This document shows, one piece after another, positions 1-767 of a stretch of DNA of 61,480 bases. The stretch is from Patescibacteria group bacterium (GTDB taxonomy: Bacteria; Patescibacteriota; Minisyncoccia; Phycocordibacterales; Phycocordibacteraceae), in the NCBI GenBank assembly GCA_038062735.1, contig JBBTWN010000009.1, positions 1 to 61,480 of the forward strand, given 5' to 3'. Position numbers and translations under genes: made by a program. Each line of letters starts with the position of its first letter. Positions within the stretch are counted from its first letter, which is position 1. The notes beneath the pieces were generated by a model. The model ran no database searches and was not told the DNA's origin. It saw only the letters and a list, made by a program, of their open reading frames with translations.

Positions 1-767
<767 letters not shown>

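What the first reader, a model, noticed from the sequence alone, without database searches (positions are those of the whole stretch)
754..767. 16S rRNA 3' tail lacks the CCUCC anti-Shine-Dalgarno core
Helix 45 aligns base for base in length with E. coli (CACGGCTAGC-GGAA-GCTGGTCGTG versus UAACCGUAGG-GGAA-CCUGCGGUUG). After the conserved GGATCA (754-759) the tail reads TATCCATG, where E. coli has CCUCCUUA. The first two C residues of the anti-SD core are therefore replaced. Consistent with this, almost none of the start codons I inspected has a GGAGG-like motif at -5 to -12. This holds for first genes such as 14022, 23299, 42560 and 47480. It also holds for internal genes such as 9103, 16927, 25522, 26364, 31628, 43999, 44712 and 45482. 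I do not know whether this is already documented for this lineage.
Basis: partly seen in the sequence, partly recalled or inferred. Interest (0 to 1): 0.6.

Follow-up and report, generated by a model that had tools for sequence, protein, structure and literature searches.

The report
16S rRNA without anti-Shine-Dalgarno tail
This tiny uncultured Parcubacteria (candidate phyla radiation) bacterium has a 16S rRNA that lacks the sequence which normally docks ribosomes onto mRNAs, and its genes carry no docking sites; the loss was already published for this branch.

Summary
The 16S gene (window 1-767, cut by the contig end) has an intact helix 45, then GAUCA-UAUCC-AUG where the consensus reads GAUCA-CCUCC-UUU.

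This is not an error. All 26 distinct tails recovered from 26 relatives in the same genus and order lack CCUCC. In a class-wide draw, about 27 tails were canonical and about 33 decayed.

No Shine-Dalgarno (SD) signal exists in this genome:
- SD-like 4-mers at -13..-7 run at 0.70x background.
- GGAGG/AGGAG occurs before 6 of 997 genes, against 10-23 in shifted control windows.
- No motif complementary to the new tail is enriched.

The same pipeline finds 3.7x and 7.6x SD enrichment in two CPR genomes of other classes.

Instead, a full sigma-70 promoter (TTG at -35, TG at -15/-14, TAnnnT at -12..-7, pyrimidine at -1) sits at a fixed distance from 24-42% of start codons. This predicts leaderless mRNAs. 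Packed genes often overlap as ATGA.

Eight same-class genomes that keep CCUCC show almost no SD use (1.37x), so the tail probably decayed after SD use was abandoned.

The loss was reported by Tsurumaki et al. 2022 for the uL1-lacking Parcubacteria subgroup. This scan has noted it in at least 225 genomes, and the leaderless pattern in this genome too. The finding is ordinary for the lineage.

The parts
1..767 (+). 3' half of the single 16S rRNA gene; its 5' part is cut off by the contig end
   Evidence: Rfam RF00177, 688.5 bits, model positions 740-1533. It is the only 16S in the assembly.
731..754 (+). Helix 45: CACGGCUAGC / GGAA loop / GCUGGUCGUG
   Evidence: cmscan structure line. The sequence is identical across the genus and most of the order.
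755..767 (+). 16S 3' tail GAUCAUAUCCAUG. GAUCA is kept. The anti-SD core position 760-764 reads UAUCC instead of CCUCC.
   Evidence: All 26 distinct tails recovered from 26 same-genus and same-order relatives also lack CCUCC.
762..771 (+). Weak inverted repeat UCC-AUGC-GGA that joins the tail to the first trailer bases. In relatives it is UUCC-N3-5-GGAA or UUCA-N3-UGAA.
   Evidence: 18 of 26 distinct relatives' tails form a stem of at least 4 bp here, against a mean of 4.3 (maximum 12) in 500 shuffles. Only 3 bp form in this genome. Covariation is not statistically convincing.
14010..14024 (+). Example of a leaderless-type start: TATACT, 6 nt, then ATG at 14022
   Evidence: The genome-wide geometry is shown.
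23287..23301 (+). Example of a leaderless-type start: TATAGT, 6 nt, then ATG at 23299 (GT4 glycosyltransferase)
42525..42562 (.). Divergent gene pair with only 34 bp between the two ATGs. Each ATG has its own -10 box at -12..-7 (TATAGT on the minus strand at 42532-42537; TAGTAT on the plus strand at 42548-42553). There is no room for 5' UTRs.
   Evidence: 25 of 106 divergent pairs in the genome have 40 bp or less between their start codons.

Best explanation

Most transcription units appear to be leaderless. A sigma-70 promoter (-35 TTG, extended TG, -10 TAnnnT) is placed so that transcription starts at the A of the ATG. Ribosomes would then bind the 5'-terminal AUG with initiator tRNA, with no rRNA-mRNA pairing. 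Tightly packed downstream genes are probably translated by termination-reinitiation (ATGA overlaps and 1-4 nt gaps) or from their own internal leaderless promoters.

Same-class relatives that still carry CCUCC show almost no SD use either. The tail is therefore most likely a relic that decays by point substitution once SD use has been abandoned.

Shown here: the tail sequence, its conservation, the absence of SD or alternative-SD motifs, and the promoter geometry. Inferred: the transcription start sites, the mature 16S 3' end, the reinitiation step, and the order of events.
For: Tail sequence:
- The tail is GAUCAUAUCCAUG, after an intact helix 45.
- All 26 distinct tails recovered from the genus and 12 other families of the order lack CCUCC.
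- In a class draw, about 27 tails were canonical and about 33 variant, in more than 12 forms.
- In a phylum draw, 133 of 301 genomes had the canonical tail, and 0 of 6 in the same order.

No SD signal:
- The GGAG/GAGG/AGGA profile is flat from -80 to +50.
- These 4-mers occur at -18..-4 in 5-10% of genes, against 8.5% of random windows.
- Starts at -13..-7: 54 observed against 76.6 expected (0.70x).
- Positive controls in the same pipeline: G082 3.65x and G056 7.56x.
- GGAGG/AGGAG precedes 6 of 997 genes, against 10-23 in ten shifted windows.
- Duplex-energy scans with either the real tail or the canonical tail show weaker, not stronger, binding at -20..-8. G082 dips to -3.5 against a background of -2.4 kcal/mol.

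Leaderless geometry:
- TAnnnT occurs at exactly -12 in 231 of 979 naive longest-ORF starts, against about 15 per other position.
- In 91 genes with an unambiguous start it occurs in 42%, with a pyrimidine at -1 in 82%.
- Genes selected only for the -10 box also show T .50 / G .62 at -15/-14, and TTG at -35..-33 (36 TTGACA-like hits at -35 against about 5 elsewhere).
- The box is commoner before divergent genes (37%) and genes with a 16-50 nt gap (46%) than before overlapping genes (9%). There are 60 ATGA overlaps.
- 25 of 106 divergent pairs have 40 bp or less between their ATGs.

Relatives:
- Five anti-SD-less genomes show 1.16x SD-like 4-mers (not significant) and a TAnnnT spike at -12 of 8.5-18%.
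- Eight same-class genomes with the canonical tail show 1.37x, an excess of 2.7 hits per 100 genes.

Literature: Tsurumaki et al. 2022 report the loss in a Parcubacteria subgroup overlapping the uL1-lacking group. uL1 was not found here.
Against:
- Gene calls come from my own simple hexamer caller, and start sites are uncertain. I mitigated this with naive starts, a subset of unambiguous starts, and positive controls.
- Only 24-42% of genes carry a strict TAnnnT at -12. How the remaining leading genes start is not shown.
- 40% of 30 tightly packed genes with an unambiguous start also have the box. That implies many promoters inside upstream genes, or else a translational role for the motif.
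- The relatives' samples are small (60-240 kb each).
- The order of events (SD use lost first, tail decayed later) rests on present-day states without a phylogeny.
Confidence: 0.85

Rival explanations
1. The TAnnnT element 6 nt upstream of start codons is a non-SD ribosome recognition element on leadered mRNAs (read by S1 or another ribosomal component), not a promoter -10 box.
For: The motif also occurs before 17-40% of tightly packed same-strand genes, where a promoter would lie inside the upstream gene. T at -1 is enriched in every gene class. An S1-domain protein with at least three S1 domains is encoded.
Against: Genes chosen only by the hexamer also show an extended-10 TG at -15/-14 and a -35 TTG at 17-bp spacing. 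These are RNA-polymerase features with no known role in ribosome binding. The motif is four to five times commoner before divergent or spaced genes than before overlapping ones. Divergent pairs only 14-40 bp apart leave no room for leaders.
Confidence: 0.08
2. The SD/anti-SD pair has co-evolved. The new tail (UAUCC, or AUCAUA) pairs with a new upstream motif such as GGAUA or UAUGAU.
For: UAUGAU, the complement of tail positions AUCAUA, resembles a -10 hexamer.
Against: GGAT/GATA/GGAA are flat upstream, apart from a GATA that overlaps the -10 TA. G at -9 is rare (0.16-0.18), so UAUGAU is not the preferred hexamer. The duplex-energy scan with the genome's own tail shows no dip at -20..-8. The tail differs among relatives that share the same upstream signal.
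Confidence: 0.03
3. The mature 16S 3' end is not where the model ends. A longer or differently processed tail exposes an anti-SD-like sequence, or the conserved UUC...GAA hairpin region supplies a new mRNA-binding function.
For: The mature end is unmapped. A conserved inverted repeat spans the tail-trailer junction in 18 of 26 relatives' tails.
Against: No CCTCC lies within 535 nt downstream. No upstream motif of any kind other than promoter elements is enriched. SD-like motifs are depleted, not enriched.
Confidence: 0.03
4. The tail is an assembly or sequencing artefact at a contig edge, or the gene is a pseudogene.
For: The 16S gene is cut by the contig end, and the genome is a 30-contig draft.
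Against: The tail lies 767 nt inside the contig. A 98%-identical relative has the same tail, and 25 other genomes have related CCUCC-less tails. The Rfam score is high throughout. It is the only 16S copy.
Confidence: 0.01

Closest known systems
Anti-SD-less subgroup of Parcubacteria (Tsurumaki, Saito, Tomita, Kanai 2022, RNA 28:1041; PMC9297842)
   Same: The same lineage and the same trait. The CCUCCU motif is absent from the 16S 3' end, the lineages overlap the uL1-lacking group, and the authors conclude that SD helices do not form. This genome lacks uL1 and groups with Paceibacterota/Kaiserbacteria-type MAGs.
   Different: That paper reports only motif detection rates. It does not say how initiation works. 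It does not describe leaderless promoters, the mosaic of decayed tail variants, or the near-absence of SD use in relatives that keep CCUCC.
Other bacteria whose 16S lacks CCUCC: some Flavobacteriia (Chryseobacterium, Elizabethkingia, Riemerella, Blattabacterium), some Mycoplasma, Carsonella, Hodgkinia (Lim 2012; Amin et al. 2018, PMC6107228; PMC10783764)
   Same: A 16S tail without an anti-SD goes together with no SD enrichment before ORFs.
   Different: These are unrelated lineages. For them the proposed alternatives are S1-dependent or A-rich unstructured leaders. Here the dominant signal is a promoter locked to the start codon.
Leaderless-rich transcriptomes of Actinobacteria (Mycobacterium, Streptomyces), Deinococcus-Thermus and many archaea
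   Same: A -10 box (or TATA box) sits at a fixed short distance from the start codon, so the mRNA begins at the AUG. bS21 is also missing in Thermus, Deinococcus and Corynebacterium, as seen in the control panel.
   Different: Those bacteria keep the anti-SD and use SD for their leadered and internal genes. Here the SD route is absent altogether.
Bacteroidetes ribosome with a sequestered anti-SD (Jha et al. 2021, NAR 49:547)
   Same: Little or no SD use genome-wide. Some CPR relatives (G099, and the same-class canonical-tail genomes) resemble this state: the anti-SD is present but unused.
   Different: In Bacteroidetes the CCUCC is present and is masked by bS21, bS18 and bS6. In this genome the sequence itself is gone, and bS21 was not found.

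Membership tests
Anti-SD-less 16S rRNA lineages (Lim 2012; Amin 2018; Tsurumaki 2022) | An intact helix 45 and GAUCA, followed by a tail without CCUCC | tested here: met
   The cmscan alignment gives GAUCAUAUCCAUG.
Anti-SD-less 16S rRNA lineages (Lim 2012; Amin 2018; Tsurumaki 2022) | No SD motif enrichment before ORFs, and no motif complementary to the 13-nt tail | tested here: met
   SD-like 4-mers run at 0.70x background, against 3.65x and 7.56x in the controls. GGAGG/AGGAG precedes 6 of 997 genes, against 10-23 in shifted windows. The duplex scan is flat.
Anti-SD-less 16S rRNA lineages (Lim 2012; Amin 2018; Tsurumaki 2022) | The trait is shared by relatives, so it is not a sequencing error | tested here: met
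   All 26 distinct tails recovered from 26 same-genus and same-order relatives lack CCUCC.
uL1-lacking Parcubacteria subgroup (Tsurumaki 2022) | No ribosomal protein uL1 gene | tested here: met
   PF00687 was not found in the 93.6%-complete genome, while all 14 control genomes scored. It was also absent from the same-class genomes G279 and G163.
uL1-lacking Parcubacteria subgroup (Tsurumaki 2022) | Affiliation with Parcubacteria/Paceibacteria | tested here: met
   The best SecA matches are Paceibacterota, Kaiserbacteria, Vogelbacteria and Nealsonbacteria MAGs. Relatives have genomes of 0.5-1 Mb.
Leaderless-dominated gene expression | A promoter -10 element at a fixed distance, so that the TSS coincides with the start codon | tested here: met
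   TAnnnT occurs at -12 in 231 of 979 starts, against about 15 at other positions. TG and -35 TTG co-occur with it. It occurs in 42% of genes with an unambiguous start.
Leaderless-dominated gene expression | Mapped 5' ends of mRNAs at the AUG | not testable with these tools
Bacteroidetes-type anti-SD sequestration | CCUCC is present in the 16S but occluded by bS21, bS18 and bS6 | tested here: not met
   CCUCC is absent, and bS21 was not found.
Variant but functional SD/anti-SD pair (for example the Alteromonas second tail type, or orthogonal ribosomes) | An upstream motif complementary to the variant tail is enriched at SD distance | tested here: not met
   Searches show enrichment only of promoter-type, TA-rich 4-mers.

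The most novel reading that the evidence does not exclude
SD-led initiation may have been abandoned across the whole class before the 16S tail changed. The CCUCC would then be a relic in Paceibacteria that has decayed repeatedly and independently. The support for independent decay is that variant tails occur on at least five different helix-45 backgrounds that also occur with canonical tails. If so, the class is a natural experiment on what else constrains the 16S 3' end. Era, which binds GAUCACCUCC, is already gone, and a conserved UUC...GAA mini-hairpin may be replacing the single-stranded tail. Leaderless initiation plus reinitiation would be the only start mechanisms of a whole bacterial class.
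Probability: 0.4. Interest if true: 0.55.

Novelty: already known. Interest (0 to 1): 0.3.

Why it matters
The Shine-Dalgarno interaction is the textbook way bacterial ribosomes find start codons. A large bacterial radiation that has dropped it, and whose rRNA tail is visibly decaying, shows that the interaction is dispensable. It also points to leaderless initiation, thought to be the ancestral mode, as a sufficient replacement.

There are practical consequences:
- Gene finders that rely on SD models will misplace starts in these genomes.
- Expressing CPR genes in E. coli will need added ribosome-binding sites.
- 16S 3'-end annotation rules based on CCUCC will truncate or mis-call these genes.

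The core fact is already published, and this scan has seen it many times, so this window adds detail rather than discovery.

Tried and rejected
1. Alternative SD complementary to the new tail. K-mer profiles, 4-mer enrichment and duplex-energy scans found nothing.

2. A strong duplex-energy dip of the genome's own tail over the start codon. It arises only because the tail ends in CCAUG, which pairs with (Y)AUGG. CAUG is not conserved in relatives, and T at -1 is equally frequent in genomes with other tails. I treated it as an artefact.

3. Era loss as the cause. Era is absent here. It also appears absent in CPR genomes that keep CCUCC: the over-cut-off hits there are 470-aa proteins with two GTPase domains, which look like Der. 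Era loss is therefore permissive at most.

4. bS21 loss as a correlate. bS21 was not found here. Weak hits occur in 24 of 61 genomes of the order, with 2 over the cut-off, and it is present in 3-4 of 5 canonical-tail genomes. The result is inconclusive.

5. uL1 loss as a correlate. uL1 is also absent in same-class genomes with canonical tails. Its loss is wider than the tail loss.

6. Covariation in the tail hairpin. The 4th pair changes from C-G to A-U in only 4 of 10 families that have the A. This is not better than chance, so only conserved pairing potential can be claimed.

7. Leader-trailer duplex prediction in relatives, to place the hairpin relative to a processing stem. The results were too noisy to interpret.

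8. Residual SD-bearing gene subset, a lead from earlier notes on other genomes. None exists here: 6 of 997 genes, below the controls.

9. SD-stimulated programmed frameshift in prfB, a lead from e1-3347525. The RF2 gene here is a single ORF that starts at an ATG 6 nt after the upstream stop, with no CUU UGA site.

10. Mapping the mature 3' end and the TSSs with public reads.

Full report
**The observation.** Window 1-767 is the 3' half of a bacterial 16S rRNA gene (Rfam RF00177, 688 bits, model positions 740-1533), cut by the contig end. The window is a whole 61-kb contig of an 865-kb, 30-contig, 93.6%-complete genome. Helix 45 is intact (731-754, ten pairs around a GGAA loop). It is followed by GAUCAUAUCCAUG (755-767), where the consensus reads GAUCACCUCCUUU. 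The anti-SD core position 760-764 therefore reads UAUCC. This is the only 16S gene in the assembly. The next CCTCC downstream lies 535 nt away, inside an ORF.

**The tail is not an error, and the trait is old.** A search of 40 relatives gave 26 further genomes with this part of the 16S gene. They yielded 26 distinct tails, spanning the genus and 12 other families of the order, and none has CCUCC.
- In the genus the tails read GGA(U/A)CA-(A/C/U)(U/A)UCC.
- In other families they read GGAAU(A/U)-(A/U)UUC(A/C). There even the GAUCA box decays.

A class-wide pattern search recovered about 60 genuine 16S 3' ends. About 27 were canonical and about 33 variant, in more than a dozen forms: GGAUCAUCUCC, GGAUCACUUCU, GGAWWUUCUCC, GGAACAWUUCU, GGAUUAAUUCM, and GGAUCAUAUCC in this genome and in G453. 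Variant tails occur on at least five helix-45 sequence backgrounds that also occur with canonical tails. This suggests repeated decay, but it is an inference made without a tree. Across the phylum, 133 of 301 sampled genomes have the canonical end, and 0 of 6 in the same order do.

**Identity and literature.** SecA from the window is closest to Candidatus Paceibacterota, Kaiserbacteria, Vogelbacteria and Nealsonbacteria MAGs, and uL1 is not detectable. Tsurumaki et al. 2022 (RNA 28:1041) state three things:
- The anti-SD motif is detected in only 48% of Parcubacteria.
- The lineages without it overlap the uL1-lacking group.
- SD helices are therefore thought not to form.

Other 16S genes without CCUCC are known in some Flavobacteriia, Mycoplasma, Carsonella and Hodgkinia (Amin et al. 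2018; PMC10783764). This scan has noted the same trait in at least 225 genomes.

**SD use in this genome.** I called 997 genes with a simple hexamer-score caller (88.7% coding).
- With naive longest-ORF starts, GGAG/GAGG/AGGA are flat at about 10 hits per position from -80 to +50.
- In -18..-4 these 4-mers occur in 5-10% of genes, against 8.5% of random windows.
- Starts at -13..-7 number 54, against 76.6 expected (0.70x).
- The identical pipeline gives 3.65x and 7.56x in two CPR genomes of other classes with canonical tails, G082 at GC 63% and G056 at GC 38%. The method therefore has power at both compositions.
- GGAGG/AGGAG precede 6 of 997 genes, against 10-23 in ten shifted control windows. 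Unlike some other Parcubacteria noted earlier in this scan, this genome has no residual SD-bearing gene subset.
- Duplex-energy scans with either the real tail or the canonical tail show weaker binding at -20..-8 than in the flanks. G082 dips from -2.4 to -3.5 kcal/mol.
- No 4-mer other than TA-rich promoter words is enriched upstream. There is no co-evolved alternative SD.

**What replaces SD.** TAnnnT occurs at exactly -12 in 231 of 979 naive starts, against about 15 at other positions. Several independent features mark this as a promoter element.
- In 91 genes whose start is unambiguous, the hexamer is present in 42%. In the same genes -12 is T in 62%, -11 is A in 66%, -7 is T in 53%, and -1 is a pyrimidine in 82%. 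Internal in-frame ATGs have a pyrimidine at -1 in 55%.
- Genes selected only by the hexamer also carry an extended-10 TG (T .50 at -15, G .62 at -14).
- The same genes carry a -35 TTG at 17-bp spacing (36 TTGACA-like hits at -35, against about 5 elsewhere).

This is a complete sigma-70 promoter placed so that transcription starts at the A of the ATG, which is the signature of leaderless mRNAs.
- The box precedes 37% of divergent genes and 46% of genes with a 16-50 nt gap, but 9% of overlapping genes.
- Same-strand neighbours show 60 ATGA overlaps and many 1-4 nt gaps, which fits termination-reinitiation.
- 25 of 106 divergent pairs have 40 bp or less between their two ATGs. In the window, 42525/42560 are 34 bp apart with a -10 box on each strand. 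This leaves no room for leaders.
Gene 47480 has TATAGT one base further upstream.

An earlier follow-up in this scan reached the same leaderless reading for this genome. I reached it independently before opening those notes. I found no paper in the searchable library that links leaderless initiation to CPR bacteria.

**Relatives.** Five anti-SD-less genomes (same genus, three other families of the order, and one other family of the class) show no significant SD enrichment (1.16x). Their TAnnnT spike at -12 is 8.5-18%, against 2-3% background. Eight same-class genomes that keep GGAUCACCUCC, pooled to 575 genes, show only 1.37x. That is an excess of 2.7 hits per 100 genes (P about 0.01). In a window comparison the counts were 45 against 45. 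G099, from another class and with a canonical tail, shows none. Loss of SD use is therefore wider than loss of the anti-SD. The simplest reading is that initiation became SD-independent first and the tail then drifted. This is an inference from present-day states in small samples.

**Co-losses.**
- Era, which binds GAUCACCUCC (Tu et al. 2011, cited in PMC10582724), is absent here. It seems absent in canonical-tail CPR genomes as well, so its loss may relax the constraint but does not explain the decay.
- bS21 was not found here and is patchy in the order.
- uL1 is also missing in canonical-tail class members.
- YbeY and a multi-domain S1 protein are present.
- The RF2 gene has no programmed frameshift site. 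That fits a ribosome that cannot use an internal SD.

**The tail-trailer junction.** In 18 of 26 distinct tails, the UUC(C/A) of the tail can pair with a (G/U)GAA 3-5 nt downstream. Shuffles give a mean of 4.3 and a maximum of 12. In this genome only 3 bp form. The apparent C-G to A-U switch is compensated in only 4 of 10 families, so covariation is not established. Whether this region belongs to the mature rRNA is unknown.

**Limits.** The gene calls are my own. The relatives' samples are partial.

**Verdict.** The added value is the quantitative demonstration with controls, the mosaic of tail decay across the class, and the near-absence of SD use in relatives that still carry CCUCC.

Noticed in passing
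window 768-1709: The 16S gene is not followed by a 23S gene. After about 870 nt, which hold two small ORFs without Pfam hits (978-1280 and 1287-1568), comes tRNA-Ile(GAU) at 1636-1709. No tRNA-Ala or 23S follows in the remaining 60 kb. No 23S is present in the assembly at all. The rRNA genes are either unlinked or there is an assembly gap.
   Followed up: partly
window 762-771, and L004-L029 at the same position: There is a conserved inverted repeat at the junction of the 16S tail and its trailer: UUCC-N3-5-GGAA in the genus and UUCA-N3-UGAA in other families. 18 of 26 tails form at least 4 bp, against a mean of 4.3 in shuffles. The loops vary while the arms are kept. It could be a 3'-terminal mini-helix or a processing signal. 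Covariation is not significant.
   Followed up: partly
whole genome G000; for example window starts 14022, 23299 and 42560: G is strongly avoided at -1 (4-8%) and T is favoured (about 50%) before start codons in all gene classes, including tightly packed genes. Internal in-frame ATGs have 28% G and 26% T at -1. The pattern fits the pyrimidine(-1)/purine(+1) rule for transcription start sites. It might also reflect extended pairing with the initiator tRNA anticodon loop.
   Followed up: partly
G099, and eight same-class genomes (L075-L084, L088-L099, L128-L147): CPR genomes that keep a perfect GGAUCACCUCC tail show almost no SD enrichment (0.53x and 1.37x). In that respect they resemble Bacteroidetes.
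   Followed up: partly
G000 contig C20, 38236-39126: The RF2 (prfB) gene is a single short ORF without the usual SD-stimulated +1 frameshift site. A motif search for RF1 (GGQ plus PxT) found no candidate in this 93.6%-complete genome.
   Followed up: partly
L023/L031 (G001), L025/L032 (G027), L024 (G037), L030 (G017 C1): In several relatives the 16S match is split by inserts of roughly 0.5-1.3 kb near the position matching window base 637. These look like the rRNA insertion sequences or introns known in CPR.
   Followed up: no
window 51053-53695: This is SecA. The Pfam alignment starts at residue 76 of the longest ORF, so the TTG start that my caller chose is probably about 60 codons too far upstream.
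   Followed up: no
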